Below, one piece after another: positions 12,715 through 58,320 of a stretch of DNA of 64,000 bases; the stretch's first letter is position 1; each line of letters starts with the position of its first letter. Origin of the DNA: Torpedo marmorata (lineage: Eukaryota); the NCBI GenBank assembly GCA_977017645.1, contig OZ360238.1, positions 39,308,001 through 39,372,000 on the forward strand. Direction: 5' to 3'. Under the pieces are notes generated by a model. That model saw only the letters and a program-made list of their open reading frames with translations, was not told the origin of the DNA and did no database searches. The position numbers were made by a program, and so were the translations under genes.

Positions 12715-13522
12715 ATCTAAAATAAGGCTCTGGAAACCATTGAGTCTACTTAACCTGGTTTAATGTGAAAGAGGGTGCCTCCAATGGTACAGCACGCTCC
12801 TGAACCCTCAGTAGAGTGTTACCCTATGATTTTATGTTAAAATCTCTGGAGTATGACATGACCTACAACCTTTCAAATATGTGATACTGCCACGCTTGAG
12901 GTTTCCCGCAAAGGCGAACAATGGGTCCTTGAGTCAGATACCAATTCAGTCTGTAACCAGGGGAAACCAGATTATTGGAGAAGGGGTGAGTGTGGAGGGG
13001 GTTGGGGAGAGCAGAAGTTGGGGAAAGGAGAGTTTGGGAAGAGAATTAAAAAAATAACAGTAAAGGAAAATCTCACAGTTCTCAGACAGCTGCTCTATGT
13101 CCTGCCTCTGATCCCAACTGTGTATAAGCAATGATGGAAATGCAATACTGAGCGACATTATCCTGGTACTGAAACATCACATCACAAAGCCTTGGGACAG
13201 ATGAAATATCAACGAAGCATATCAGAATGTAAACTATATCGAAAGGGGCAGGTTTTTTTATTCAAACAAGCTCTTAGGGTACAATAAATGATATGCCATT
13301 TGGATTACTTAGGATGAATTGAATTTCAAACAGTGCCCTGAAGATACAAGTGTTTTGGAAGATGTTTCGCTAATGGAATTTACATCTGTCTATTGCAAAT
13401 GAGGAAACTCATATCCGTGAACACCAAGCTGCAGAGGGCTTTTGATTCACTCCTGGCTCGGGAGAACGAGAGTACTTGGTGTCTGATGTATTCTGTGCAA
13501 AAAGGACATGAAGCAGAGGCAT

Positions 13523-13758
13523 GGGGTGGCGTGGTTAGCATAGCGGTTAGCGCAACGCTATTACAGCACCAGCGACCGGGGTTCGAATCCGGCACTGTCT
13601 GTAAGGAGTTTGCACGTTCTCCTCGTGTCTGCGTCGGTTTCCTCCCACCCTTCAAAAAAACGTACAGGGTTGCAGTTCAATTGGGTGTAATTGGGCGGCA
13701 CGGGCTCGAGGGCCAGAAGGGTCTGTTACCGTGCTGCCTGTCTAAATTTAAAATAAAT
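13523..13758 (+). mobile_element. V-SINE (HE1-like)
   Basis: tRNA head, V-domain and tail TCTAAATTTAAA. Confidence 0.9.
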
Positions 13759-14114
13759 CCCACAGCTCCTAAGCTTCAGTTGCTCTGGGAAACATCCAGA
13801 AGTTGGCTCCGATTCCCTGTCTCAAGAGTTTTCAGCAAGAGAGACCTTCCCAACAAGAAGAGAGTCCTTAACTCATTCTCCCCCCCAACTATCATGCACC
13901 AGTCCATGTTCTGCGGAGAGGTGTTGGACATTGTGCTCCCCTACGATCAAGCGAACAAGGAGCATCCTGTGGCCTGTTAACTTAATTTGATGTTTGCATG
14001 ACTTTATGACCCACAGACAAGACAAAATGGACAACTAAGTAGTTCTGTGGCAGATACTAATGCGAGGACACCCTACAGCCCACAAACACTTTTGAAGCAA
14101 ACAATGAGAAGTTA

Positions 14115-14370
14115 GGGCGCGGTTAGTGTAGTCGTTAGCACAACGCTATTACAGCGCCTGCGACCCGGGTTCGAATCTGGAGCTGTCTGTAAGGAGATAG
14201 TACGTTCTGCGTGGGTTTCCTCCGGGTGTTCTGGTTTCCTCCCACCCTCCAAAGACGTACGGTTATCAGTAGGTTTATTGGTCACGTGGGTGTATTTGAG
14301 CGGCATGGGCTCATAGGCCAGAAGGGCTGTTACTGTGCTGTATCTCTAAATTAAAAATTAAAATAAAAAA
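14115..14370 (+). mobile_element. V-SINE (HE1-like)
   Basis: Same consensus as the other copies. Confidence 0.9.
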
Positions 14371-14819
14371 TAATTTAAATTTTATTTTAATTTAGACATT
14401 AAGTTGGTGGGACTCAGCTCGACAGGCAAGCATCCATGAAGAGAAATGGGCGGTCGATGTTTTGGGCTGGGACACTTTTTCAAGCCTCGGTTGGGAAGGT
14501 GAAATCAAACATAAAAGGGGCTGGGGCGAAGGGCTAGAGAGAGGCCAAGTGGTAATAAGATTGTAGGAGAGGTGGCGATACAGGTAGGGAAAGAGACCAC
14601 AGGTGGAGGTGGAGGGGTTGGACTACAGGGAAAATGAGTGTGGGAGCAGGTAACAGACAGATGGAATGTGGAACCTTACCTGAAATTGGAAAATCCAATG
14701 TTTATGACCTTTTGAAATGTAGTTACTTTCGTACCATAATGACATGGCAGTCACTATGCACAAAGAATAGAGAACAGTACAACATAGGAACAGCCCCATC
14801 AGCCGATGTGACTCGGCTG

Positions 14820-15520
14820 AGGATGGCCATTGTGTGCAGTTTTGGTCAACTACCTACAGGAAAGATATCAATAAGATTGAAAGAGTGCAGAGAAGATTTA
14901 CAAGGATGTTTCCAGAACTTGAGGACCTAAAATATGGGGAAAGGTTAAACAGCTTAGAACTTTATTCCTTGGAACATTGAATCAGAATCAGAATTTATTG
15001 TCATGAACAAGTCACGAAATTTGGTGTTTTGCGGCAGCATCATAGTGCAAACATTCATATTATAACCATCTTACAACAATAATATTTAAAAAAAAATAAT
15101 AAAAAAAAAAATAGTAGTGCACGAAAAGTAAGGCATTGGAGAATGAAGGGAGATTTGATAGAGGTATGCAAAATTATGAGGGGTATAGATAGAGTAAATG
15201 CAAGCAGGCTTTTTTCACTGAGGTTGGGTGGGACAAGTACAAGAGCACGTGGGTTAAGGGTGAAAGGTGAAATGTTTTAAAGAGATCATTAGAGGGAACT
15301 TCTTCACGCAGAGAGTGGTGATGGTATGTAATGAGCTGAAGTGGTGAATGCGGGCTCCATTTCGATATATAAGAAAAAAAAATTTGATAGGTACATGGAT
15401 GGGATGGGTATGGAGGGCTATGGTCCAGGTGCAGGTCAATGGGACTAGGCAGAATAATAGTTCAGCACAGACTAGATGGACCAAAGGGTCTGTTTCTATG
15501 TAGTAGTGATCTATGGTTCT
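14820..15520 (+). mobile_element. CR1 3' fragment with a nested Rex1 tail
   Basis: tgtgtgcagttttggtc, gagatttgatagaggtatgcaaaattatgaggggtatagatagagt, and a CR1-type 3' end. Confidence 0.85.
14980..15133 (-). mobile_element. Rex1 family A insertion comprising only the 3' UTR
   Basis: Reverse complement of the family A tail; 5-bp TSD cattg at 14975-14979 and 15134-15138. Confidence 0.88.
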
Positions 15521-15539
15521 GTGATGCCCAAGTTAAGGT

Positions 15540-16510
15540 AAAACTCTGCTGCTTGCATGTGATAAATATCCCTCTGTTCCCTGCAATATTCATGTACTGT
15601 CTATATCTAGAAGCCTCTGAAACTCTGTGCTTCCATCATTACCCCTGGCAGCCCATCCCAGGCTGTGTAAAAAGTTGTTCTGCACATTTCCCTTAAACTT
15701 TCCCCCAACATCTTAAATGCATGTCCTCTAATATGTGACAATTTAACCTGGGAAAAAGATTCTGACTGTCTACATTATCCACACCTCTCATAATTTTATA
15801 AACTTCCATGAGGTCTCTCTTCAGCATCTGATACTTCAGAGGAAAACAATCCGAATTTGTCTAACCTTCCAGCTCATACCCTCCAATCCAGGCAGCATTT
15901 TGGTAAATCTCTTCTGTACCATTGCCAAAGTCTCCACATCCTTCCTGTAATGGAATGACCAGAATTCCACACAACACCCCAAGTCTGACTTCACCAAAGT
16001 TTTATATAGCTGCCACATGGCTTCCTTACTCTTCCACTCAATGTCCCAACCAATGAAGGCAAGTATCCCATATAGCAAATACCCAGAGGATATCGATTTA
16101 AGGTGAATACAGGAAAGTTTGGGAGAGATGTCAGAGGTAAGTTTTTTTTTTTTTTTACAGAGAGTGGAGGATACGTGGAATGCATTGCCAGGGGTGGTGG
16201 TGGACGCTGGTGCAATAGGGACAGTTAAAAGACTCTTAAGACAGGCACATGGATGGAATAAAACTAGAGGGTTATGGGCATGAGGGAGGGAATGATTCGA
16301 TTGTTGTGGAGTAAGTTTACATGGGTTGGCACAACATCATGGACCGAAGAGCCTGTATTGTGCTGTAATTTTCCACGTTATTCCATATACCTTCTTTACC
16401 ACCCTACTTAATTGTGTTGTCTCCTCCAGGGTGCTATGGATGTGGACCTCCAGATCCTTCTGTACATCAACACTGTCCTGCCATTAACCGTGCACCTTCC
16501 CCTTGCATTT
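15540..16510 (-). mobile_element. CR1 fragment with a plus-strand CR1 3' end nested at about 16080-16380
   Basis: Peptide YGILAFIGWDIEWKSKEAMWQLYKTLV...FTKMLPGLE; the minus-strand element resumes after about 16385. Confidence 0.75.
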
Positions 16511-16852
16511 GGCCTCTCAAAGCGCAACACTTTGGGATGTTGGGTATTTTTTCAATAATGCCCAGCTCACAGTAGACTCTGCTTCACTCCAGACACAGAA
16601 CTGATGTTCCAATGCATGATTTATCCGAATCATGTCGAGGAATATATATGCCAGAACACAGGAAGGCACAGGCCAGGAAGAGAACATCACAATCTGCTGG
16701 ATTAGCTCCACAGTTCACAGAGCAGCCGTGCCTCACACTCTTCAGAAACATCCTCTGCCCACTTGCCGACCACCCAGCAGGACTGCTCTGCAAAATAAAC
16801 CCTCTCGGTGAAGCTCAGCACAGTTTTCAGCGGGCAAGCAATGCTTCTGACT

Positions 16853-17108
16853 TTTTTTTTAAAATTTCCACATACAGCACTGTAACAGGCCCTTCCGGCT
16901 CATGAGCCCGTGCCGCCCAATTACACCAATTAGCCTACAACCCCCAGACGTTTTGAAGGATGGGAGGAAACTGGACAACCCGGGGAAAACGCATGCACGC
17001 AGACACGGGGAGAATGTAAAAACTCCATACAGACAGCGCCGGATTTGAACCCGGGGTTGCTGGCGCTGTAATAGCATTGCGCTAACCTCTGCACTAACCG
17101 TGCCGCCC
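16853..17108 (-). mobile_element. V-SINE (HE1-like)
   Basis: Full head and V-domain; A-rich tail at the 16853 end. Confidence 0.9.
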
Positions 17109-17900
17109 AATAGCCTTGCAGAAATGAATAGTCTTGCACAACAGTCAGTTCTTGGTTAAATGTGAGAAGAGGGACCATCACTCGGTGCTTTCCACTGATG
17201 GGAACTTTCAAACCATTCCCATCCAGGAACAATGATGGCAACACCAAAAACTCTGCATCTCAGCAGCCTCCAACTCCAGAAGAACACATAGAAGAACAGC
17301 CAGAAGTCATTTTCTCCTGTCCTGTAGTCCCGACTCTCTGGAGTGAAAGGTCAGCGCAGCACGATGGGCCAAAGGCTGGTCTATTCTATGTTCTTTGAAA
17401 GTCAACAGACTGTTGATTGGTGAAGGCCATCTCATTAGCTTGGATCTCTTCTCACCCAAACCCCCAGCCCCACACACTGCGCTCAACAGCTGATGTTGCC
17501 GGGACAAGCCTTTCGCTTGCAGGTCATACTGTCCATCAGCGATGTCACTTGAGGACCTCACCATTTGGCTGGTTGTTGCAAGAATTTGTGCAACAGGTCA
17601 ACAACGACTGACAAGATTAGGAGCAAGGAAAACAGGCATTAGACATCCAGTGGGGATGATTTGGATAACTCTCTGCACCGGGCCACCCGTATCAACAGCA
17701 GAAGGGAAACTGGTGACAAGTCCCAGGACTTGTTTTTCACAACTTTAAGAATTGACTGTTCTGCAAGACTATTCGAGTCAGAAGCATTGCTTGCCTGCTG
17801 AAAACTTGTCTTGAGCTTCACCGAAGGGGTTTTATTTTCTTGAAATAAAAAACAAATTCAAATGTACAACGGCGTCGGCGGCTTCCGCGCTCTCACTCAC

Positions 17901-18119
17901 CTCTGGGCTCTTCCGCTTGTTTGGCGAGTTTGCGGAGGGCAGCCGCGAAGCTGGCAGAGTGCGCTGACGGTACGGGTAAGGTGCTGTTAGCTGCCGGGCT
18001 GCCATTGGGCACCATGGAGCCATTGAGGGAGGAAGGGTTGAGGGGGCTTACGGTGGCTGTCGTCCGAGTCGCAGTCGAGATCATTCCTAGTGAAGGTGAC
18101 TTTGGCTCATGGCTCATGC
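17901..18119 (-). CDS. GSE1: Internal coding exon of genetic suppressor element 1 (GSE1-family coiled-coil protein), equivalent to human exon 2; 219 nt, phase 1-1
   Basis: Translation [41 protein letters not shown]...[17 protein letters not shown] closely matches the recalled vertebrate GSE1 N-terminus. Acceptor tcccctgacctctag|GCATG at 18120/18119 and donor AGAG|gtgagt at 17901/17900. Ortholog versus paralog cannot be resolved. The next exon (GSSLSSESSP...) was not found in the window. Confidence 0.92.
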
Positions 18120-18249
18120 CTAGAGGTCAGGGGAATACAAGGGGGAGGGGGTTGGGAAGAGGGGAGGGGGAGAAAAAGGAGAGAAGATTTAGATTAAAAA
18201 AAATACTAAATCCCCCTTCCTCAGCTCTCTGAAGCACATGATTTGTGTG

Positions 18250-18478
18250 TTTTTTTTAGACGTAAGCACGGTAACAGGCCCTTCCGGCCCACGAGCCTGT
18301 GCTGCCCAAATACACCAATTAACCTATAACGTTTTGAAGTGTGGGAGGAAACCGGAGCACCCGGAGGAAACCCATGCAGTCATGGGAAGAATGTACAAAC
18401 TCCTTACAGACAGCGCCGGATTCTAACCTGGGTCGCTGTAATAGCGTTGCGCTAACCGCAACGTTAACCGTGCCGCCC
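18250..18478 (-). mobile_element. V-SINE (HE1-like), 130 bp upstream of the GSE1 exon
   Basis: Consensus match. Confidence 0.9.
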
Positions 18479-19469
18479 TGTGCTCTTTAGGTTGCAATGA
18501 GTTGTATTTATCCTTAATATTTCATAACCAAACCTCTAATTTATGAGGAAACATTATTGAATTAAATGGCTAAATTCTGAATGAATCCGGCAGAGGACAC
18601 ACATCACAGGTATTATTTGCTATTCATTCACTGGATGGGATCACCGTGCACGGTCCACCCCTGTATGCCCTTGAAGTTCTTTGCTTGTCAGGCTGTTAAT
18701 CAGGGTGCCAAAGGCTCAAGCACGTTGCTGTGGACCCAAGTCAAGGAAAAAATAGGCCAGATCGGGGAATGGTAACAGATTTATTTTCCTAACCGGCAGG
18801 GCTAATGCCAGGCAAATGGAATGAGCATGGCTTGGCAACTTGGTCAACACGCTCGAGATAGGCTGAAGGGCCTGCTCTGTGCTGTATGAGCCTATGCATC
18901 TAATTACAATTCAATAGCTTGGACATCATTATCGACACCAACTTTTTACTTACTGATTTATTTATTATATTCCCAAACTATTTTGCTGTCATTTGAACTC
19001 AAGGCCAGGCCCCTGGTTTGCTTGTCTTGTAAGCAATGTGCCACAGTCTCCGCGTGCGTCTGCTTATATCAAGAAAGAGGCCATTTGTCCTTTCGATTCT
19101 GTGGGGACTCCCGGTACAGCAATCATATCACTCCTGTTCTCTCATGCAAAACTTGTGTATGCAAACACATATTCACTCATACATATACACAGGCACTGAG
19201 GCAGCCCCTCAGATGGAAGATGGCTTGCTTCCAATCCTTGGCATTGGTAAGGCCCACAGATTATCACAGATGGATCAGAAGCTGCTTCAAGAGGTGGGGT
19301 GGATGGGGGAGGTGGGTGGATGGGTAGTTTGGGAGATGGTGCTCTTTGTCCATCATTTACACTTAAGCCTTCCAACCAAAAGACTCAACATTCTTCATTG
19401 TACAGCTAGCATTGGGAGTCTGCTGTGGTAGTATACATCACCAAAGTACCCAGGAGAACAGCATTCCCA

Positions 19470-19720
19470 CACCTTTTGCATAGTCTAATAGTATCTGCCT
19501 CCACCACCACCTCTGGGAGTTTGTTCCAGATATTCACCACCCTCTGTGTGAAAAACTTACCTCTCAGACCTCCTTTAAATTTCTCCTCTCTCACCCTGAA
19601 TCTCTGTCATCTAGTTCCAGACTCTCCTGGGAAAAAGGTTCTTACTATCGATCCTATCTGTGTTCCTATAAGTTTGTAGACCTCTTTGCAGCCACACTTT
19701 AGCTCTTCTGTTGAAGTGAG
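19470..19720 (-). mobile_element. CR1 fragment
   Basis: Peptide KFKGGLRGKFFTQRVVNIWNKLPEVVVEADT. Confidence 0.8.
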
Positions 19721-19799
19721 AATAAACCCAGCCTCGCTCATCTCTCCTGATGACTAATGCCTGTGTGTATGCGTGGACTGAAACGCACAGGCTCGCATC

Positions 19800-20200
19800 T
19801 ATAAATGCACACAAATATACTGTATATACAGACCCGCATACAAACACACACACACAAAGCATTCAAGTGCCTCTGCACAGATGTAGATCTGCATACCCCC
19901 AGCATACATACACACACATACACGCACACAGCTTCTGATGCACACGCAAACATCAATATACACACACACACAGCCTTTAACGCACAGCAAACACGAACAC
20001 ACATGCATGCACACACACACAGACACTAATGCACAAACAAACATGAATAAACGTACATGTGCGCACACACATAGCCTCTAATGCACAAACACAAATGAAC
20101 ACACACACACCGCCTCTAATGGACACACAAACACGAATAAACACACATGCGTGCGCACACAAAGACAGCCTCTAATGCACGCACACACACACACGCACGC
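19800..20200. repeat. Complex (CA)n-derived repeat with recurring gcctctaatgcac
   Basis: Read directly. Confidence 0.85.
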
Positions 20201-20639
20201 ATCCAAGCCACGGTTTTCTCCTGCACAGAGACAGCCTTCTTCAGCACTTTGTCAAGCTGGAGAAGCCAGCCTATTGAGCAGATTTACAAGACCATCAATT
20301 CTGGCATCTGACCCTCAACGTCCTCTCACTGGAAAAAACACACATCAAACATGATAGCAATTACACTTTCCTGTGAACCCAGAATAGGAGTGTTGGCACC
20401 AGATTAGAAATAGCTGTCTGTGGAAGGACACTTCCAAGGGAGCCTTTGCCCTCTGCCCGTCTTATGGACGATATATGACAGGCAGTGATGGTGGAAAGGT
20501 GAAATGTGGCTGTGGAAGCACTTACACTGGCATAAATCTGCTTCAGCTCCACATTCTACCCACACACAATACATTAATCTCTGTAAATCATGGACTGATA
20601 GGAATTCTTGCTTCTTTCTTGTAAGTTTAAGAGTCAGAG

Positions 20640-21010
20640 AGTCAAACAGCATGGAATCAGGCCATTTGGCCCTCGATGTGTGTGCTGGCCAGTGATTAAT
20701 CCACCGTTTAGCACTTGGATCCGTTGCCTTCTGTGCCTCGGCAATTTAAGTGCTCATCTCGACTTTTCTTAAATGTTACCAACAATTCTGCTTCCATTAC
20801 TCTTGCAGACAGTGCATTTAAGGTACTGCATACTCTCTGGGAGAGTGGGGGGTTTTAAAGGAGATGTACGGGGCAAGTTTTTTTTTTTTTTTTTTTTACA
20901 CAGAGTGGTGGGTGACTGGAACGGGCTGCCAGGTTTAGTGGTGGAAGCAGGTACGATCATGGCATTCCAGATAAACACATGAATATGCAGGGAATTGAGA
21001 GATATGTATC
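20640..21010. mobile_element. Two opposed CR1 3' fragments
   Basis: Plus strand FKGDVRGKFF..HRVVGDWNGLPGLVVEAGT; minus-strand CR1 end at about 20640-20800. Confidence 0.65.
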
Positions 21011-21034
21011 ATTTTCTTTTATAAAATACCTTAT

Positions 21035-21272
21035 TTTTTTAAATGTATTTACAGCATAGTAGAAGCCATTGAAACCATGCCGACCAATTACACCCAAATT
21101 AAACTACAACCCCGTACAATTTTGGAACGTGGGAGGAAACTGGAGCACCCGAGGAAAACCCACGCAGACACAAGGAGAACTTACAAACTCCTTACAGACA
21201 GCGCCAGATTTGAACCCGGGCTGCTGGCGCTGTAATAGCAATGCGCTAACTGCTTCGCTAACCGTGCCGCCC
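21035..21272 (-). mobile_element. V-SINE
   Basis: Consensus match. Confidence 0.88.
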
Positions 21273-21427
21273 AAATGCAGCGAGTAAGAATTTCACTGCA
21301 TACGTGCATTGTACGATGTATATGACAATAAAGTCATTATCATTTGCAAGCAGCAAAATTGTCGATTAATCTGTGCATCGTGTTCAGCACAGAAATCATG
21401 GGCTGAAGGGTCTGTTCCTATACTGTA

Positions 21428-21681
21428 TTTTTTTTTTTGGAGATGCAGCACGACAATAGTCCCTTCCGGCCCACGAGCCCGCGCTGCCCAAATACAACCA
21501 CGTGACCAATAACCTACTAACCCCATATGTCTTTGGAATGTGGAAGAAAACTGAAGCATCCGGAGGAAACCAACGCAGACAGGGGGAAGAAAGAACAAAC
21601 TGCTTACAGACAGCTCCAGATACGAACCCAGATCGCTGGCGCTGTAATAGCATTGTGCTAACCGCTACGCTAACCGTGCCA
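21428..21681 (-). mobile_element. V-SINE
   Basis: Consensus match. Confidence 0.88.
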
Positions 21682-22204
21682 TACTGCCCTGTGTTTAGCA
21701 GATTCCAAAGAACTTTACAACTGATGAATTACTTCTTGAATTTCAGTCATATAAGATGAGATGGCAGCCAATTTGTTGAAATACCTGTTCTCCAGGAAAA
21801 CAACAGCAAAAGTGATCAGTTCACCTCTCTTGGTGGTGTGTGGGTAAAAGGAAGCTGGTGGACATGGACAATGTCAGCAGTGCACTGTAGCTGGTGGAGT
21901 AGAGCTTAATAACAAAATACAATTAGCAAATGGAGATGGATTGTGTGAGAGTTGTGCACCATTAGCTGGCAGAGATGGGCTTCACAAGAGTGATGGAGAA
22001 AGAGAATGCAGAGGCCAGATAATTCATCCCCTGAGGCTCTCGAGCAGAATTGCTACATTTCACCCAAAGCAAACACAATGTAAGAAATCAGACTTTGTTA
22101 GCAAGCACAAACCAGCATCACAACCACATGCGGGAGAGGAGCGCATAACATGTCGTTGATAATCACACAACCTCTTAAAGCCGGTGATGAAAGAAAAATC
22201 TTCA

Positions 22205-22907
22205 AACCCCTCTGAATGACCACCCTCCACTACACATCAATAACTCTATAGTGGAGAGGGTAGAGAGCACCAAGTTCCTTGGAGACCACTTAACAAGTGA
22301 CCTATCGTGGACACACAACATCTCCTCACTTGTCAGGAAGGTGCCACAGCAACTGCACTTCCTGAGAAGACTGAAGTGGGCAAGGCTACTGGCCACCATC
22401 ATGTCAACCTTTTACAGGAGCTCTATTGAGAGCGTCCTGGCCGGCTGCATCACAGTGTGGTACAGTTGCTGCGGAGAAATGGATCGGAGGTCAAACCACA
22501 GGACCATAATCGACGTGATCTACTGGGTTTGTGGTCTGAAGAAGGCGCGCAAAATCATTGAGGACCCCCACCAACCCGCACACAGCATCTTTCAGCTACT
22601 CCCATCGGGAAAAGGATACAGAAGTATCAGAGAAAGCACCACCACGCTGAGAAACAGCTTCTTCCCACGGGCAGTGAGAATGCTGAACGACCAAAGGAAC
22701 TGCTCACACTAACCATCCAAGACTCTCATATTAACAAAACAATATTTATTTATTTTTATATATGTATATTTGTCCTGCGTATGTATTGATTATCTGTATG
22801 TGTGTTATTTCTGGCTTTGTGTTTGCATGTTTTGCACGGAGGACTGCAGAATGCTGTTTTGTCAGGATGTACTTGTGCAATTGAATGATAATAAACTTGA
22901 ACTTGAT
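22205..22907 (+). mobile_element. Rex1-like LINE family B, 3' fragment
   Basis: Peptide VERVESTKFLG.HLTSDLSW...FYRSSIESVL...RNSFFPRAVRMLN; tail AATAAA(CTTGAA)n. Confidence 0.88.
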
Positions 22908-24184
22908 ACTATGTTACTGGATGGAATAGAGTATATGGTCCTACACAGATCGTGATGGATTCAACATTAAAACAGCTGTCTTTAAGAAGCTATATTCCCT
23001 CAGACACTAAAGTATTGGCACCACTTTACAGTGAAATGGTGGTTCAAGCAAGAAGGGGTAAACATCAGTCACTTTTAATGAGGCTCCACCATATCCTCCC
23101 AACAACAGAATGGCTTCTTGTCTGCGATACCAATTTATGGTGTCAGCAGCTGGGAATGCATTACTTTGCTCTCTGTATTTGACCGATGAGATGCGCTTGT
23201 GCGCCTGCTCTGTCGGGAGAGCAGGGGGCTTGGTGCCCAGCAGCAAGAACTGGAGCGCGTCCTCAAATTCACCGAGACCAAGAGAGCTCCACCTGCCCAC
23301 GGGGGCAGAATGAAAGACCAAACCCTGCCACTCCCCGGCCCGCTCACATCCAACCTCCCTGCACGCCATGCTCCTCAGTGGCTCTCCCCATTTTACTTCA
23401 TCAACACCCCACCTCCACATTAGTGCACACTAATCACAGATTCACTGCTTCCTGCCACTTCCTAATTACAAAACCCCAGTCCCCAGCAGACTTCTGACTT
23501 CAAACTGCATTCTGCGATCACCGTGCACTGTAATTACAAACTAATAGTTTGGATGAATTTTTTTTTTTTTTTTTTTTGCTCGATCCACGCAGAACCCCTC
23601 CAGGATAATTATACCCTGGAGCGCCAGGCTGGCAGGTCTCCAACTTAATCGCAGGCACACATTTGTGTCCTGCACTACATAATAATCTCTCTTGACAATT
23701 TTCATTACAATTGGAAAAATGTTGAACAAATAAACAGCATTATTTAGCTGCCTCCTTCATCTCAGACAATGTGCTGTTCCCCTGAAGGCCGGTGCTCTGC
23801 ATATTAACAGTCATAGGCCACTATATATGCCATGCACATGATCTCATATGACATTCAGCTGATGTCTCTAGTCGAATTCTTAGGTTGATTATTATAAAAC
23901 TATTGTGCTTGCAGAGGTTTCTTTCCTCCATTTATGTCCTGCTATATTTTTGTGAAGAGCCTTTATTATTTGTGGAATCACCAAGTTCTTCTCCTCGACT
24001 TTCCTTGCTACCTCCTCATCAAAAGCTTTGGAGTTTGCTCCACTCCTTCTCTTCACTCCTCTCTGTCCCCCTTTCCACCCACCCAATCCCAGAGAACAAT
24101 CCGCCCACTTTTGACAGGTGGTTTGGTGATGGTTCAGCCACATCACCTCATGGTCAAAACCCAGGGAACTGAAAACAGTAAGGC

Positions 24185-24564
24185 TGTAGCCGACTGCTAC
24201 GAAGAAACACACACACGCAGTGTGGAAGGTTAAGCTCTCTGCTTTATTGAGGCTGGAAATGCTTCTTTTATACAGTTGGAGTTCCCGCTGTTTGGTTGAT
24301 TGGTTGACATCAGCGGCATGAATAACAATAGCGGGCGGGAACGTTCTTGCATATGAATACCCTTCTTCCCCAGCCTGGTATTGATCTGTTAGCTGGGCAG
24401 CTTGGCCAGCGCCATTTTAGGGCTGCTGGTCTTGTACTGCTCCTGCTTTCAACTGCGCCGGTTCGCTATGCTAAGGGTCGCGTTACAGGGTGTTATGCCG
24501 CTGTTTACTACCGCGCGTGCCGCGCGATGTGCCGGCTCGATCTCCGCGGTGGTGGGCCGCCACA
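24185..24564 (-). mobile_element. Solo LTR (380 bp, probably Gypsy)
   Basis: TGTAGC...GCCACA termini; 4-bp TSD aggc (24181-24184, 24565-24568); minus-strand TATAAAAG (24265-24272) and AATAAAG (24242-24248); CpG-rich. Confidence 0.85.
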
Positions 24565-24579
24565 AGGCTTTCATTCATG

Positions 24580-25255
24580 TAACGCCTTTCATAGAGCAGG
24601 CCTTTCGGCCCACGATGTTCTGCCGACCTATGCAAACCTACTCCACAACAATCTAATCCTTCCCTACCTCACACCCATATCCCCCTATTTATCTTACATT
24701 CATTTGCCTAACCAAAGAGTCTTTTGAATTTCCCAATTGTACTCGCCTTCACCATCATCCCTGGCACCCATCGCTCTCTGAGTAAAAAACGTATCTCTGA
24801 CATTTCTAAACTTTCCTCCACTCACCTCAAACACATTTCCTCTGGTATTTGTTATTATCGCCCCAGGAAAATGTTGCTGGCTGTCCACCCTATCTCTGCC
24901 CCTCATGATCTGATATACCTCTATTAAGTCACCTCTCATCCTTCATTGCTCCAAAGAGAAAAGCCCTAGCTCTGTCAACCTTGCTTCATATGACATGTTT
25001 TCTAATCCAGGCAACGATCCTGGTAAATTTCCTCTGCACCCTTTCCAACGCATTGACATCCTGTTATGACGTGACCAGAACTGAACGCAACACTCCAAAT
25101 GTGGTCTAACCAGAGTGTTATCGAGGTTCAACATTACCTCATGACCGTATGCCTTCTTAACCACCCTATCAACTGGAGTGGCAACCTTGAGGAATCCATG
25201 AACCTCAACCACAAGATCTCTCTGTTCCTCCACACTGTTAAGAATCCTGCCATTG
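24580..25255 (-). mobile_element. CR1 3' fragment
   Basis: Peptides LVRPHLECCVQFWS, LGLFSLEQ and MRGDLIEVYQIMRGRDRVD. Confidence 0.88.
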
Positions 25256-25301
25256 TGACTTCCAAAAAAGATTTAAAAGACAATGATAAAATTACAATGA
25301 T

Positions 25302-26043
25302 ATGACAACAACCTTGCGCTCAACGTCAGCAAAACCAAGGAGATGATTGTGGACTTCAGGAGGAAGTCAGAGGAACACGACCCAGTCCTCATCGAGGGTT
25401 CAGTAGTGGAGACGGTCAAGAACTTCAAATTCCTGGGTGTCAACATCTCCGAGGATCTGTCCTGGAGCCTCCACATTGATGCAATCACAAAGAAGGCTTG
25501 CCAGCGGCTATACTTTGTGAGGTGTCTGAGGAGATTCGGTATGTCACCGAAGACTCTCGTAAACATCTACAGGTGTACCGTGGAGAGCATTCTGGCTGGT
25601 TGCATCACTGCCTGGTATGGAGGCGCCAACTCTCAGGACAAGAATAAACTCCAGAGGGTTGTTAACTCGGCCTGTGACATCACAGGTACCAAACCTCACT
25701 CCATCGAGGACATCTACATGAGGCGGTGTCTTAAAAAAGCAGCCTCTGTCCTCAAAGACCCCCACCACCCAGGCCATGCCCTCTTCACTCTGCTACCATC
25801 GGGAAAAAGGTACAGGAGCCTAAAGTCGAGCACTCGACGGCACAAGGACAGCTTCTTCCCCACTGCCATCAGATTCCTGAATAACCAATGAACCAAATAC
25901 ACTGCCTTACTTTTCGTGCACTATAATTTATATTTTTTTATGGTAATGTCGTAAGATGGTTATAATATGAATGTTTTCACTATGATGCTGCTGCAAAACA
26001 CCGAATTTCATGACTTGTTCATGACAATAAATTCTGATTCTGA
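25302..26043 (+). mobile_element. Rex1 family A, 5'-truncated
   Basis: [17 protein letters not shown]...FLNNQ plus the family A tail. Confidence 0.92.
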
Positions 26044-26379
26044 TATTCATTTGGACCAGGACACAGTTGACGTGCAGCTAATTTGCTCACAGCAAGCTCC
26101 CAATGTGAAAAATAACTGGATAGCTGCCTGAATGATGCTGATTCCTGAATAGGTTTTCGCCATGACTCTGGGTGTTAACCCTGGACTCTAGGCCAATATT
26201 TATTGCTCAATCTACCCCAAAAAAACAAATTATTGGGTCATTCTCATGATGTTTTTTGTGGGCATTTATGTGCAGACTGGCTGTGGGTTTTACAGCAGCA
26301 CCATACTGTCTACCTTCAAGAAAATTTCATTGGCTGCCAACAATTTTAAGTATAATTGGAAAAATGATGAACAATCTCT

Positions 26380-26622
26380 GTTAGCATAGTGGTTAGGACA
26401 ACACTGTTACAGCACCAGCGATCGAGACCGGGGTTCGTATCCCACGCTGTCTGTAAGCAGTTTGTACGTTCTCCCTGTATCTGCGTGGGTTTTCCCTGGG
26501 GGCTCCTGTTTCCTCTCACCGTTGAAAACGTACCGGGTGTTGTCGGTCAATTGGGTATAATTGGGCGGCATGGGCTTGTGGGCCGAAAGGTCCTGTTACC
26601 GTGCTGTATATCTAAAAAAAAT
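26380..26622 (+). mobile_element. V-SINE
   Basis: Consensus match. Confidence 0.85.
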
Positions 26623-26829
26623 CTATTATTGGGACAGGCAGTAAATAAATGCAGGTCTTTCTTCTTTGTTTTAGCTCATAATATGTGCTTCTAGCCATTA
26701 ACCTCGAGCTTCCTCTAAAATACTGCCCAGGTCAACTACTCCATGTGGTAGTGTGTTCCATATTACAATCACACTAAACAAAATGTTTGCATTTACTTCT
26801 AACTGGATTTATCGATTTATTATTTATAG

Positions 26830-27090
26830 TCAGCATGGTTGGCATAATGGTTAGCGCAAAGCCTTTACAGCACCAGCGATCGGGACTGGACCGGGGTTCA
26901 AGTCCCGCGCTGTCTGTAAGGAGTTTGTATGTTCTCCCCGTGTCTGCGTGTGTTTTCTCTGGGGGCTCCGGTTTCCTCCCACCGTTCAAAACGTACCGGG
27001 GGTATAGATTAATGGAGTGTAAATTGGGTGGCACGAACTCGTGGGCCGAAATGGCCTGTTACCGTGCTGTATGTCTAAATTTAAAATTTT
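26830..27090 (+). mobile_element. V-SINE (subfamily with an extra insert before the B box)
   Basis: cagcgatcgggactggaccggggttcaagtcc head; a similar variant occurs at 31199. Confidence 0.88.
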
Positions 27091-27340
27091 AAGAAGTCCT
27101 TTGACTTGATCTGTGCCACTTGGAGAAGTCATCTACTATGCTCGATCCATTTATAATATAAAGGGCCTCAATAAGGTCACTCCAAGGCGACCTCTTGTCT
27201 ACAGGGTACACATCCAGACTGTTCGGTTACTGAAAGTCAAGCTCTCAGTTCTGGTTTGTACATCCTATGCTCTACAGGGGTTAGAAAAATGAGCAGTAAT
27301 TTCTTTGAGATAAAAGAATTTATGGGGACTTGACAAAATA

Positions 27341-27603
27341 CAGTAAATCCCCTGTTATCCAGAATTCAGGCAACCAGCAGCCTCAAGCAACTGGCAAAAA
27401 AAAAAAAAAAAAAAAAAAAACAAAAAAAAAAAAAAAAAAAAAAAAACGCAGAAAATAAATAGGTAAAAACTACAGAAGTTTAAAATTGGCGCGCCTCACC
27501 ATTAGTTGGCCAATCACGCAACATGCAATCTCAAGCAACTGGAAAATTCACTTATCCGACATCAACCAATCCCTATAGGTGACAGATATCAGGGGTTTTA
27601 CTG
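27341..27603. mobile_element. TcMar (Tigger-like) MITE with an internal A tract of about 50 nt
   Basis: TIRs CAGTAAATCCCCTGTTATC / GATATCAGGGGTTTTACTG with TA on both sides. Confidence 0.85.
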
Positions 27604-44180: not shown

Positions 44181-44597
44181 ACATGCTTTGAAGTAGCATT
44201 GCTTCCCATTGGCCACAGGATCACGGCAACTTTTAATGTGTTTGGTGGTGCAAGGTGTCAAGTAGGGAAAGAGACAAGAAGTGGAAGATACCACCCTGTG
44301 AATAATTCAAACTGTTTCACAACCTCCTCCCCCTGCACCTAATCTCGGAATCCAGTGCAGACAGCATGTCTCAGATATAATGAGCAAGGCTGTTATCGAA
44401 TAACATTGGGCTGGAGGGAGACTCAATGACGCTTCACTTCTGAACAACTACCACATGAAACCCCATGCTGGCCAATACTTCAGCGGAAATGTTATTCTAC
44501 AAACTACATTAAAATTGTTCCACAGCTGCATGAATTCAGAGCTTTGAGACACCAGTGGAGAGGTGATGGCCATCCTTCACAGGTGAATAAAGCCCTC

Positions 44598-45449
44598 CAG
44601 TGGTGGGTGTACAGAGCCCACAGTGGTGGGTATAGAGAGCCCACAGTGGTGGGTGTACAGAGCCCACAGTGGTGGGTGTACAGAGCCCACAGTAGAGGGT
44701 GTAGAGAACCCACAGTGGTGGGTGTAGAGAGCCCACAGTAGAGGGTGTACAGAGCCCACAGTAGAGGGTGTACAGAGCCCACAGTGGTGGGTGTAGAGAG
44801 CCCACAGTGGTGGGTGTAGAGAGCCCACAGTGGTGGGTGTACAGAGCCCACAGTGGTGGGTGTAGAGAGCCCACAGTAGAGGGTGTACAGAGCCCACAGT
44901 GGTGGGTGTAGAGAGCCCACAGTGGTGGGTATAGAGAGCCCACAGTGGTGGGTGTACAGAGCCCACAGTGGTGGGTGTAGAGAGCCCACAGTAGAGGGTG
45001 TACAGAGCCCACAGTAGAGGGTGTACAGAGCCCACAGTGGTGGGTGTACAGAGCCCACAGTAGAGGGTGTACAGAGCCCACAGTAGAGGGTGTAGAGAGC
45101 CCACAGTGGTGGGTGTAGAGAGCCCACAGTGGTGGGTGTAGAGAGCCCACAGTGGTGGGTGTAGAGAGCCCACAGTGGTGGGTGTAGAGAGCCCACAGTG
45201 GTGGGTGTAGAGAGCCCACAGTGGTGGGTGTAGAGAGCCCACAGTGGTGGGTGTAGAGAGCCCACAGTGGTGGGTGTAGAGAGCCCACAGTGGTGGGTGT
45301 AGAGAGCCCACAGTGGTGGGTGTAGAGAGCCCACAGTGGTGGGTGTAGAGAGCCCACAGTGGTGGGTGTAGAGAGCCCACAGTGGTGGGTGTAGAGAGCC
45401 CACAGTGGTGGGTGTAGAGAGCCCACAGTGGTGGGTGTAGAACATCCAC
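44598..45449. repeat. 23-bp minisatellite, about 37 copies (CACAGTGGTGGGTGTAGAGAGCC)
   Basis: Read directly; the 23-aa period in the ORF track corresponds to three units. Confidence 0.97.
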
Positions 45450-46369
45450 AGGAATATGTAGAAAAAGCTCTAGTCTTGAGAAAGGATCCTAAACCAAACA
45501 GCTGACTGTTCATTTCTCTGAGTCCTTCCAGCTCCTTTTTGTTTGCTCAAGATTTCAGAATCTGCAGTTCTTGTGTTTCTCTGAGCCACTCTCTCCTGTT
45601 GGTCTGTGGCATCATCACAATATCACAGTGAAATACTCTTACTTGGTAAAATTTAAAAAAAATAATAATAGAGGTGGAGTATTTTATTTTTCAGTACTTG
45701 TGCTTCAGATGTGCACAAGATATTATGAATGACCTGCTGACAACACATACAAAGTGTATAATGTATGGTGCTTTTAAGCACACAGGCTTATATAGGACCC
45801 ACCTCCTGCTCTCGAAGCTCTCAGTTATCCAATTAACACTGGGTCCTGAGAGCCTCAGATAATCAGAAGTCTATTGTAATTAAACAGGATTACATTGAGG
45901 AATATTAGAAGTGCCAACATTGGTTAACTCTAGAATATACATTAAACATTCATGGCCACTGCTGTTTGTCCAAACACTGTAAACGCTTCAGATGTAGCAG
46001 ATTACTGAGACAGACTATCGAAAGAGGATCAAACACAATTTACTGAGGAAGGCATTGAAAGGGCCCCAACTGGCCAATAATCCTCCTGTTATTTGCTCAT
46101 CATGAATATTATTATTTCTCCATACAGAAATCGTCATTCACTGCTCCTGCTAATTAAAAGTGGGCTCATAGCAGCAGGAAGCTTCATTTTGAATCATTTA
46201 TATATTTTATTAATGCTAACTGGAATATTTTCACAGGTGTTTAGATCTGGGTTGTGCTCTGCACTGATTTGAGACTCAAGTTGAATTGGGAGGTAAGTGG
46301 TACTGGGAGGATCTCTGAGTGAATGGACTGAGGAATGCTTGCTAGTTACTGGCTGAGGAGGGGGTGTTC

Positions 46370-51894: not shown

Positions 51895-53113
51895 AGTGAG
51901 GGGCTCAGCTGGAGAAGGACCCACACAGGCTGCAGGCTGCTGGCGACTTGCAGTCAAAGGACCCACACAGGCTATGGGCTGCTGGAGACAGGCTCATGGG
52001 AACCAGGTATTGGAACTGGGATTCGAGAGGGTTCTGAGGGATAGATTTCCCGAAGGGCCTTGAGCACTGAAGGCTTCCTCATTGTATCGGAGGTTTGGAT
52101 CTGGAGCTCTGGTTGCTGATGGATTGAACTGGATTCTGTGCAAAGGCTGCGGGAGCACTGGAGACTAATCCACAGACACTCAGTGACTCTGAAGGGACTA
52201 TTTTTTGCTTCTCTTTCTCCTAATGTAAGGGGCACTGGGCAATGCCTACGGTGACTACTTGTTTGCCTTATGGCAGACAAAAGTTAAATCAAATCATGTC
52301 AAGTCAAATTTATTGTCATCTGATTGCACAAGTACAACCCGACAAAACAGTTTTCTCCAGTCCTCGGTGTAAACCTCGCAGATACACAACCAGACATAAC
52401 CCACATGCACACAGACAAACAATACATATGCAGGACAAGTATTCAAATATACAAATAAATAAATAAATATTGCTTTGTGAATACAAGTCTCGGATAGTTA
52501 GAATGAGCAGTTCCTCTGGTCATTCAGCATTCTCACTGTCTGTGGGAAGAAGCTGTTCCTCAGCCTGGTGGTACTGGCTCTGATACTCCTGTATCTCTTT
52601 CACGACAGGAGCAGCTGAAAGATGCTGTGTGCGGGGTGGAAGGGGTCCTCAATGATTTTGAGCGCCCTCTTCAGACAGCGATCTCGGTAGATCATGTCGA
52701 TTGACAGGGGGTGAGGGGGGGGGGGATGGGAGACTCCTGTAATCCTCTCTGCCACGCTTATGGTCCTGTGGATTGACCTTCAATTCATTTATCTGCAGCA
52801 ACCATACCACACTGTGATGCAGCTGGCCAGGACACTCTCGATATAGCTCCTGTAGAAGGTTGACATGATGGTGGCCAGTAGCCTTGCCCGCTTCAGTTTT
52901 CTCAGGAAGTGCAATCGCTGTTGCACTTTCCAGACAAGTGAGGAGATGTGTGTCCATGATAGGTCACTAGTTAAGTGAACTCCAAGGAACTTGATGCTCT
53001 CTACTCTCTCCACTACAGAGTTGTTGATGTGTAGTGGAAGGTGGTTGTTCCTGGTCCTCAGTCTATCATGTATATTACATTTTTAATGTATTATTACATG
53101 ACAATAAAAGGAA
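51895..53113 (+). mobile_element. Family X, 5'-truncated, with its tail split by a Rex1 family B insertion
   Basis: Body at 51895-52285; the tail resumes near 53062 (tatcatgtatattacatttttaatgtattattacatgacaataaaaggaac). Confidence 0.8.
52286..53059 (-). mobile_element. Rex1-like LINE family B, 3' fragment
   Basis: Peptide VERVESIKFLGVHLTSDLSWTH...; homologous to 22205-22907. Confidence 0.88.
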
Positions 53114-57765: not shown

Positions 57766-58320
57766 ACACAGGCTCTCAAAACTCCTCGGCCAACACCTTC
57801 ACTGGCCTCGAGACCAGACCGAGTCACTGATACATTACCAACAGGCAGCCAAGGTTCACCTTCATTGCCTTTACTTCCTGTCCTCCTCAACTCTTCCAAA
57901 CAAAATCTTTTCACTGGGTGACTGCAATTCCTCCACAGAAATAAACACCTCTCTTTGCCTACATTAGGCCATGAGCTTTTCTTTGTGCCCTTGCTCAGCA
58001 AAAACTTGCTTTAATCTTTGATTCAGGAGGTCGAACTAATGAGGTGGATGGTTCTGGGCACTTGGCTTAAGACATTGTGAAAGCTTTACAAGGGGATGGA
58101 GGGGAGAGAGAGAGAGAGAAAAAAGTCCAATATATTGGCTTCTCCTGTGTGAAATGGGGCCTTGGTAATGATCTCATCGATGAATACCTAATGTGCCAAA
58201 TCGGAAACCATTCCACAGCCCCCGGCGTCTCAGGCAAGATTCCAAAATACGGCTCTCCACAGATAAGCTGTAAGCTCCATGATCAGCCTTCCGAGGTGCA
58301 TTGTTTCGGGAGAGCGAAAC

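What the first reader, a model, noticed from the sequence alone, without database searches (positions are those of the whole stretch)
17901..18119. GSE1 exon has the architecture of a stop-free circular ORF (candidate circGSE1 in a cartilaginous fish)
Seen: the exon is 219 nt (73 codons), phase 1-1, has its own ATG at nt 3 and has no in-frame stop. Back-splicing would join AGA G|GC ATG (...EEPR-G-MSHEPK...) into an endless frame. Same-family V-SINEs lie in opposite orientation across the exon: plus copies at 13523 and 14115 versus minus copies at 18250, 21035 and 21428, and the minus copy at 16853 versus plus copies at 26380 and 26830. Recalled, needs verification: human circGSE1 is a single-exon circle of the same 219-nt exon. 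Inference: the circle may be conserved across jawed vertebrates, with HE1-like SINEs playing the role of Alus, and could support rolling-circle translation.
Basis: partly seen in the sequence, partly recalled or inferred. Interest (0 to 1): 0.8.

Follow-up and report, generated by a model that had tools for sequence, protein, structure and literature searches.

The report
Ray ortholog of the circGSE1 exon
This is an ordinary, ancient, skippable protein-coding exon of the GSE1 gene in a ray, the same exon that forms an abundant circular RNA in humans and mice, so the ray likely makes that circle too, but its endless reading frame follows automatically from the exon's length and is likely not translated.

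Summary
In detail: a 219-nt, phase 1-1 GSE1 exon on the minus strand (18119-17901), ATG at nt 3, stop-free as a circle. It is the ortholog of the human and mouse circGSE1 exon: the human circle is exon 2, 219 nt, and three mouse junction siRNAs match the predicted ray junction exactly. The endless frame is not special: 7 of 13 GSE1 internal exons give one, as does the paralog's exon. Linear use explains it: related sharks and rays skip the exon in frame or start at its ATG. The V-SINEs are real and can fold around the exon, but their orientations look random (P 0.22-0.79) and exons 6 and 13 have closer pairs. No circle was shown: contigs of 8 runs from relatives gave linear junctions only, which cannot show absence. 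Human circGSE1 was not on ribosomes in HeLa cells. Verdict: circle likely (about 0.6), a by-product of long introns and skipping; rolling-circle translation unlikely (about 0.05). A word search of earlier scan notes found no similar finding on other DNA.

The parts
17901..18119 (-). GSE1 exon ('exon 2'), 219 nt, phase 1-1, cassette exon; ortholog of the human/mouse circGSE1 exon
18115..18117 (-). In-frame ATG at exon nt 3; annotated start of several shark/ray GSE1 isoforms
18120..18160 (-). Pyrimidine tract and 3' splice site (TAG); joined to at least three different upstream exons in contigs of relatives
17895..17900 (-). 5' splice site GTGAGT; next exon lies 34.3 kb on (G000:C51:39291588)
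17902..17949 (-). Codons of the most conserved peptide motif ([12 protein letters not shown]), kept in the paralog and in the most distant hits
18250..18480 (-). V-SINE copy 131 nt before the acceptor; pairs with the 13517 copy in the 5.1-kb fold
16852..17116 (-). V-SINE copy in the downstream intron, same orientation as the 18250 copy; pairs with the 14113 copy in the fold
14113..14363 (+). V-SINE copy, downstream intron
13517..13760 (+). V-SINE copy, downstream intron
21035..21274 (-). V-SINE copy, upstream intron
21426..21683 (-). V-SINE copy, upstream intron
26380..26621 (+). V-SINE copy, upstream intron
26833..27087 (+). V-SINE copy, upstream intron
16792..17838 (.). Local inverted repeat inside the downstream intron (arms 16792-16852 and 17776-17838, 63 columns, 89%); does not enclose the exon

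Best explanation
This is the ancient in-frame cassette exon of GSE1, between introns of 68.6 and 34.3 kb, and the ray likely back-splices it into a 219-nt circle as humans and mice do, likely as an untranslated by-product of slow long-intron splicing and exon skipping. Shown: the exon, its phase, its linear splicing in relatives, its orthology to the mammalian circle. Shown at the level of database annotation: it is included or skipped behind several alternative first exons that all end in phase 1, and its ATG serves as a start codon, so one exon toggles a conserved N-terminal peptide. Inferred: symmetry (hence a stop-free circle) is kept because both linear forms must stay in frame. Inferred: when the long upstream intron is slow to be removed, or the exon is looped out in a skipping lariat, the exon's donor can attack its own acceptor; nearby V-SINE pairs may help by bringing the two sites within about 1.3 kb but arrived by chance and are not required. 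Inferred from mammals: the circle stays in small RNPs off the ribosome.
For: Peptide identical to Narcine bancroftii GSE1; 72 aa in 115 of 118 delimited sequences, 59-72 aa in further hits. Of 63 shark/ray proteins listed, 47 hold the exon, 13 join an upstream exon straight to the next exon, 3 lack both markers; 7 start at the exon's Met; with/without pairs behind the same upstream exon occur in six species and in macaque. 16 of 19 sites that vary among five related organisms are third codon positions. 7 of 13 internal exons are stop-free as circles, 6 of them symmetric. This exon has the two longest flanking introns of the gene, the feature that PMC6487579 ties to abundant, conserved, Alu-independent circles. 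Human circle: chr16:85667519-85667738, exon 2, 50,010 junction reads in the ENCODE table against 132 and 2 for two other GSE1 circles shown. Mouse junction siRNAs: 3 of 3 match the doubled ray exon with 0 mismatches and the genomic strand only with 3-4. circGSE1 was one of ten circles found off monosomes and polysomes and unmoved by puromycin in HeLa. Paralog exon on contig C5: 219 nt, phase 1-1, ATG at nt 3, no inverted V-SINE pair within 35 kb.
Against: No back-splice read of the ray or any fish is in hand, so the circle is an extrapolation over the mammal-shark divergence. Skipping was read from computed database isoforms, not from reads of this species, and no clear skipped form was among the 30 bird and turtle proteins listed (30 of 244 members). 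PMC8516420 argues that circles shared between mammals arose convergently through young, lineage-specific repeats, which gives SINE pairs more weight than I do; the exon does sit in the densest V-SINE cluster of 264 kb and a 5.1-kb fold encloses it with 178 SINE base pairs. MBNL-type YGCY motifs, proposed to drive the mammalian circle, are not enriched here (10 in 600 nt; 26% of regional windows reach this). The ribosome test is one cell line; PMC9242994 reports rolling-circle products for other circles.
Confidence: 0.55

Rival explanations
1. Plain cassette exon with no appreciable circle in the ray; circGSE1 is a mammalian development driven by Alu/B1 repeats or MBNL sites.
For: All coding features are explained by linear use. 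No inverted repeat encloses the exon within 2 kb, while 4 of the 11 other exons scored have one; nearest inverted V-SINE pair totals 3,669 nt, beyond the 2,300-nt cut-off for Alu-dependent circles; copies are only 69-81% identical. No YGCY enrichment. Convergent origin of shared circles in mammals.
Against: Long flanking introns, second-exon position and cassette behaviour are all conserved; human and mouse, with different SINE families, both circularise this exon. Sharks do back-splice: 4,558 circles in bamboo shark liver.
Confidence: 0.3
2. The circle is made mainly because V-SINE copies pair across the exon, as Alus do in primates: 16852 pairs with 14113, freeing 13517 to pair with the copy 131 nt before the acceptor.
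For: MFE fold of 13450-18550 gives exactly this nested arrangement (181 and 178 SINE base pairs; 236 pairs enclose the exon); duplex energies -278 to -340 kcal/mol across the exon; only 1.9% of 2,260 positions in 264 kb are enclosed as tightly in a greedy pairing model.
Against: The fold left out upstream competitors (26380, 26833, 31197); within-intron pairs are as stable (-265 to -342); orientation shuffles P 0.22-0.79 and 71% of shuffles enclose the exon equally; exons 6 and 13 have closer pairs (1,097 and 943 nt); the statistic was chosen after seeing the data.
Confidence: 0.12
3. The circle is conserved to be translated by rolling ribosomes into a 73-residue repeat protein carrying many copies of the conserved GSE1 motif.
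For: Stop-free frame with own ATG in a fair context (G at -3); junction identical to mouse over 23 nt; the 5' half of the exon varies less than the 3' half among relatives (4 versus 15 sites, P 0.011); rolling-circle ORFs were enriched among peptide-supported circles in PMC9242994.
Against: Human circGSE1 off ribosomes; broad footprint and proteomic surveys found little or no circle translation; no GSE1 entry in the readable supplements of PMC9242994 under four identifiers (one PDF unreadable); 0 of 273 stored proteins hold the junction peptide or two copies of the motif (a weak test); exon is 61% GC, unlike AU-rich IRES-like elements (recalled); frame and junction are fixed by the linear protein anyway.
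Confidence: 0.05

Closest known systems
Human circGSE1 (hsa_circ_0000722, chr16:85667519-85667738) and mouse circGSE1
   Same: Orthologous exon, 219 nt, second exon; ray junction matches all three mouse junction siRNAs exactly.
   Different: The mammalian circles are observed and RNase R-validated; the ray circle is predicted only. Flanking repeats are V-SINEs, not Alu/B1; YGCY motifs are not enriched.
Long-intron, Alu-independent ('AUG-type') circRNAs of Stagsted et al. 2019 (PMC6487579)
   Same: 5'-proximal exon with an ATG, very long flanking introns, distal inverted repeats.
   Different: That study files the human GSE1 circle as 'Other circRNA', not AUG circRNA; the exon has no 5' UTR part, so the frame is infinite, a minority case (8% of AUG circles).
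Rolling-circle ORF circRNAs (circPFAS, circPSAP, circABHD12; PMC9242994)
   Same: 3n length, stop-free frame, in-frame ATG.
   Different: No junction peptide, footprint or IRES-like activity is known here; the human ortholog tested negative on gradients.
V-SINE superfamily (HE1 of sharks and rays)
   Same: tRNA-like head, V core matching V_HCD, A-rich end; HE1 is the V-SINE family listed for sharks and rays.
   Different: No HE1 consensus was available, so family-level identity is untested; copies are about 240 nt and 69-81% alike, weaker partners than young Alus (recalled).

Membership tests
GSE1 orthologous exon | Peptide and neighbouring exons match GSE1 | tested here: met
   100% to N. bancroftii GSE1; 12 further exons mapped downstream at 88-100%; DUF3736 in the full protein
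GSE1 orthologous exon | Splice sites used as predicted | tested here: met
   Contigs of relatives leave the genome at the exon ends: into exon 3 in 7 of 8 runs, into upstream exons in 8 of 8
circGSE1 (exonic circRNA) | Same exon and junction as the mammalian circle | tested here: met
circGSE1 (exonic circRNA) | Back-splice junction observed in RNA | tested here: inconclusive
   No joint in contigs of 8 of 22 listed runs, 5 studies, all other species, library type not on record; contigs drop rare forms
circGSE1 (exonic circRNA) | RNase R resistance | not testable with these tools
   needs RNA
Inverted-SINE-driven circRNA | Inverted pair within about 2.3 kb total distance | tested here: not met
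   3,669 nt; about 1,269 nt only if an inner pair collapses the intron
Inverted-SINE-driven circRNA | Across-exon pairing exceeds within-intron pairing and chance | tested here: not met
   shuffle P 0.22-0.79; across share 0.50-0.70, reached by 25-42% of positions
Long-intron circRNA class | Flanking introns over 6.5 kb | tested here: met
   68.6 kb and 34.3 kb; a candidate nearer first exon at about 58.2 kb would still leave 40 kb
Rolling-circle translated circRNA | Stop-free circular frame with start codon | tested here: met
   shared with 6 other GSE1 exons, 5 of them with an in-frame Met
Rolling-circle translated circRNA | Footprints or peptide across the junction | not testable with these tools
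   literature on the human ortholog is negative
V-SINE | V highly conserved domain behind a tRNA-like head | tested here: met
   alignment A1 compared by eye with V_HCD and frog V-SINE consensus lines
HE1 family | Match to HE1 consensus and HER1 LINE-derived tail | not tested
   no consensus available; only a table entry seen

The most novel reading that the evidence does not exclude
circGSE1 is a circle kept since before the split of cartilaginous and bony vertebrates, and possibly since the duplication that made the GSE1 paralog, with an unchanged junction; each lineage re-equips it with its own SINE pairs, and it is translated by rolling ribosomes into a multivalent repeat of the conserved GSE1 motif that could titrate a partner of the CoREST complex.
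Probability: 0.05. Interest if true: 0.8.

Novelty: new member of a known kind. Interest (0 to 1): 0.24.

Why it matters
If the circle exists in rays it would extend one of the most abundant human circRNAs to cartilaginous fish with the same junction, and give a clean test of whether shared circles are inherited (long introns, skipping) or convergent (new SINE pairs): the GSE1 exon has SINE pairs, its identically built paralog has none, and exons 6 and 13 have close pairs but short introns. The rolling-circle idea would matter much more, but nothing here favours it. My searches found no report of circGSE1 in a fish, with the limit that the bamboo shark circle list and the five-mammal annotation files could not be read.

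Tried and rejected
Back-splice search: no listed run is on record as RNA; 8 of 22 listed runs were laid; none gave a joint. These are assembled contigs of other species with unknown library type and no positive control, so this is uninformative, not evidence of absence. Bamboo shark circle '30-219' (219 nt, PMC7759564) looked like a match but its primers differ from this exon at 9 of 21 and 11 of 23 bases: another gene. That paper's supplement holds 294 characters of text and no circle list. PMC8516420: GSE1 hits were GEO accessions and its annotation files were not held as text. PMC8913576: hits were GEO accessions. Mouse sheet of the Stagsted table was cut from the stored file. Rfam on 13000-27500: two chance hits below threshold. 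Pfam on the exon peptide: none. QKI motifs within 1 kb: none; YGCY at background. The long-isoform upstream exons and a third upstream exon were not found in the 264 kb examined, so their position stays open. Repeat-rich hits P0245, P0257, P0269 were checked as possible concatemers and are unrelated. Length conservation in multiples of three was rejected as a test: the linear frame demands it.

Full report
Observation. The feature is on the minus strand. Bases 18119 to 17901 form a 219-nt exon with a pyrimidine tract and TAG before it and GTGAGT after it, ATG at nt 3, and one stop-free frame when copies are joined head to tail. It occurs once in the genome as DNA. The 72-residue peptide is identical to GSE1 of Narcine bancroftii; the other exons match that protein at 88-100%, so the genome is likely a related electric ray (inference).

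Gene context. With 200 kb of neighbouring sequence I mapped a first coding exon 68.6 kb upstream and 12 exons downstream, the next one 34.3 kb away; spliced, they give 1124 codons without a stop. These are the two longest introns of the part examined. Contigs from 8 runs of five related organisms (5 studies; 8 of 22 runs listed; none on record as RNA, but they are spliced) leave the genome at the predicted sites: into exon 3 in 7 of 8 runs and into upstream exons in all 8, with three different upstream exons in organism A.

Is the endless frame special? No. Of 13 internal exons, 6 are symmetric and stop-free as circles, 5 of these with an in-frame Met, and a seventh (167 nt) has no stop in any frame; 36 of 91 contiguous exon combinations have a stop-free frame. 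The peptide is 72 residues in 115 of 118 sequences that could be delimited, 65 in two and 73 in one; among 53 further hits, 32 could be delimited, at 59-72 residues. Such lengths must be whole codons for the linear mRNA, so this check cannot favour a circle. Linear use explains the architecture: among 63 shark and ray proteins listed, 47 contain the exon, 13 join an upstream exon straight to the next one, 3 lack both markers, and 7 begin at the exon's Met; with/without pairs behind the same upstream exon occur in Hypanus, Stegostoma, Hemiscyllium, Heterodontus, Carcharodon and Cetorhinus, and in macaque. These are computed database isoforms. No clear skipped form was among the 30 bird and turtle proteins listed. 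16 of 19 variable sites among relatives are third codon positions. A paralog on contig C5 has a 219-nt, phase 1-1 exon with ATG at nt 3 and the same terminal motif, so the design predates the duplication (inference).

The mammalian circle. PMC9207376 (passages) gives circGSE1 as hsa_circ_0000722, chr16:85667519-85667738, exon 2, with Alus on both sides. PMC4980667 (passages) gives 219 nt and includes it among ten circles that sediment up to 40S with no puromycin shift. PMC6487579 (passages; supplement rows) lists it in row 9 with 50,010 junction reads (HIPK3 178,216 in row 2, ZKSCAN1 45,458 in row 15), labelled 'Other circRNA', and links abundant conserved circles to long introns rather than near Alus, with no sign of translation. 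PMC9037273 (passages; whole supplement) validated a mouse circle by Sanger sequencing and RNase R; its three junction siRNAs match the doubled ray exon with no mismatch. PMC6769675 (passages) proposes MBNL sites as the conserved driver in human and mouse; in the ray YGCY counts are at background. PMC9242994 (passages; supplements searched, one PDF unreadable) supports rolling-circle translation for other circles and has no GSE1 entry under four identifiers. PMC8906552 (passages) found little footprint and no peptide evidence for circles in blood cells. PMC8516420 (passages) argues for convergent origin through young repeats. PMC7759564 (parts 1-2 of 4) shows 4,558 circles in bamboo shark liver; its 219-nt circle is another gene and its list was not readable. 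GSE1's link to the HDAC1/CoREST complex is from a search listing and abstract start only.

The SINEs. All named copies exist in the stated orientations. Their core matches the V_HCD line in the supplement of PMC6887750 (passages); PMC3747384 (table passage) lists HE1 as the V-SINE of sharks and rays, but I had no HE1 consensus. Against: the two nearest copies are co-oriented; there is no inverted pair within 2 kb, where 4 of 11 other exons have one, and at 20 kb 27% of positions score as high; orientation shuffles give P 0.22-0.79; within-intron pairs are the shortest and the most stable; the fold omitted upstream competitors; exons 6 and 13 have closer pairs, making this exon third of 12 scored (exon 14 lay at the edge), and none of 14 paralog exon matches has a pair nearer than 13.8 kb, its equivalent exon none nearer than 35 kb. 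Neighbouring positions are not independent and several cut-offs were tried, so the density signal is suggestive only.

Direct search for the circle. No back-splice joint appeared in the 8 runs. Contigs drop rare forms, library types are unknown and there was no positive control, so I treat this as uninformative.

Mechanism and odds. Most likely the exon is an ancient in-frame switch for a conserved N-terminal peptide and an alternative start, and its position between very long introns, with frequent skipping, yields a 219-nt circle as a by-product, as in mammals, possibly aided by chance SINE pairing. I put the circle's existence in the ray at about 0.6-0.7, SINE pairing as its main cause at about 0.12, and meaningful rolling-circle translation at about 0.05. 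One unexplained point is the low variation in the exon's 5' half (4 versus 15 sites, P 0.011; third positions 2 versus 14), which suggests an RNA-level constraint, most simply splicing or start-codon control; the sites are not phylogenetically independent, and the paralog comparison shows no such bias (42 versus 37 differences).

Verdict. Observation confirmed, interpretation partly supported, predicted new member of a known kind, interest 0.24.

Noticed in passing
window 18010-18119: The 5' half of the exon varies much less among five related organisms than the 3' half (4 versus 15 sites; third positions 2 versus 14), hinting at an RNA-level constraint near the acceptor and start codon.
   Followed up: partly
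G000:C5:217371939-217372157 (L003): A GSE1 paralog retains a 219-nt phase 1-1 exon with ATG at nt 3 and a 75-kb downstream intron; 14 exon matches span C5:217.13-217.37 Mb. One run also holds a contig that looks like the paralog's transcript.
   Followed up: partly
G000:C51 about 39,263,700-39,263,900 (exon 6) and 39,216,550-39,216,930 (exon 13): Two other GSE1 exons, both symmetric, are enclosed by inverted V-SINE pairs within about 1 kb; with exon 2, all three enclosed exons are symmetric and have a SINE 75-131 nt from the acceptor. Could reflect tolerance of looping-out only where the frame survives; three cases, post hoc.
   Followed up: partly
window 58194-58280, minus strand: Sequence like an alternative first exon annotated in Chiloscyllium (64% over 33 columns), here with an in-frame stop, so it would be non-coding and hand the start to the ATG of the 219-nt exon.
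   Followed up: partly
window 17849-18229, plus strand: The antisense strand of the exon is also open (127 codons, and stop-free as a circle); likely the shadow of a GC-rich coding frame.
   Followed up: no
window 16792-16852 and 17776-17838: Local inverted repeat in the downstream intron, 89% over 63 columns, duplex -91 kcal/mol; not formed in the 5.1-kb fold.
   Followed up: partly
window 44539-45546: Long tandem array giving open frames of over 300 codons on the minus strand with a repeated unit; likely a minisatellite.
   Followed up: no
window 22214-22900 and 52304-53050; 25301-25888; 1670-2167: Long inverted copies of a repeat about 30 kb apart and ORF fragments that look like ends of LINE-type elements (label recalled, not tested).
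   Followed up: no
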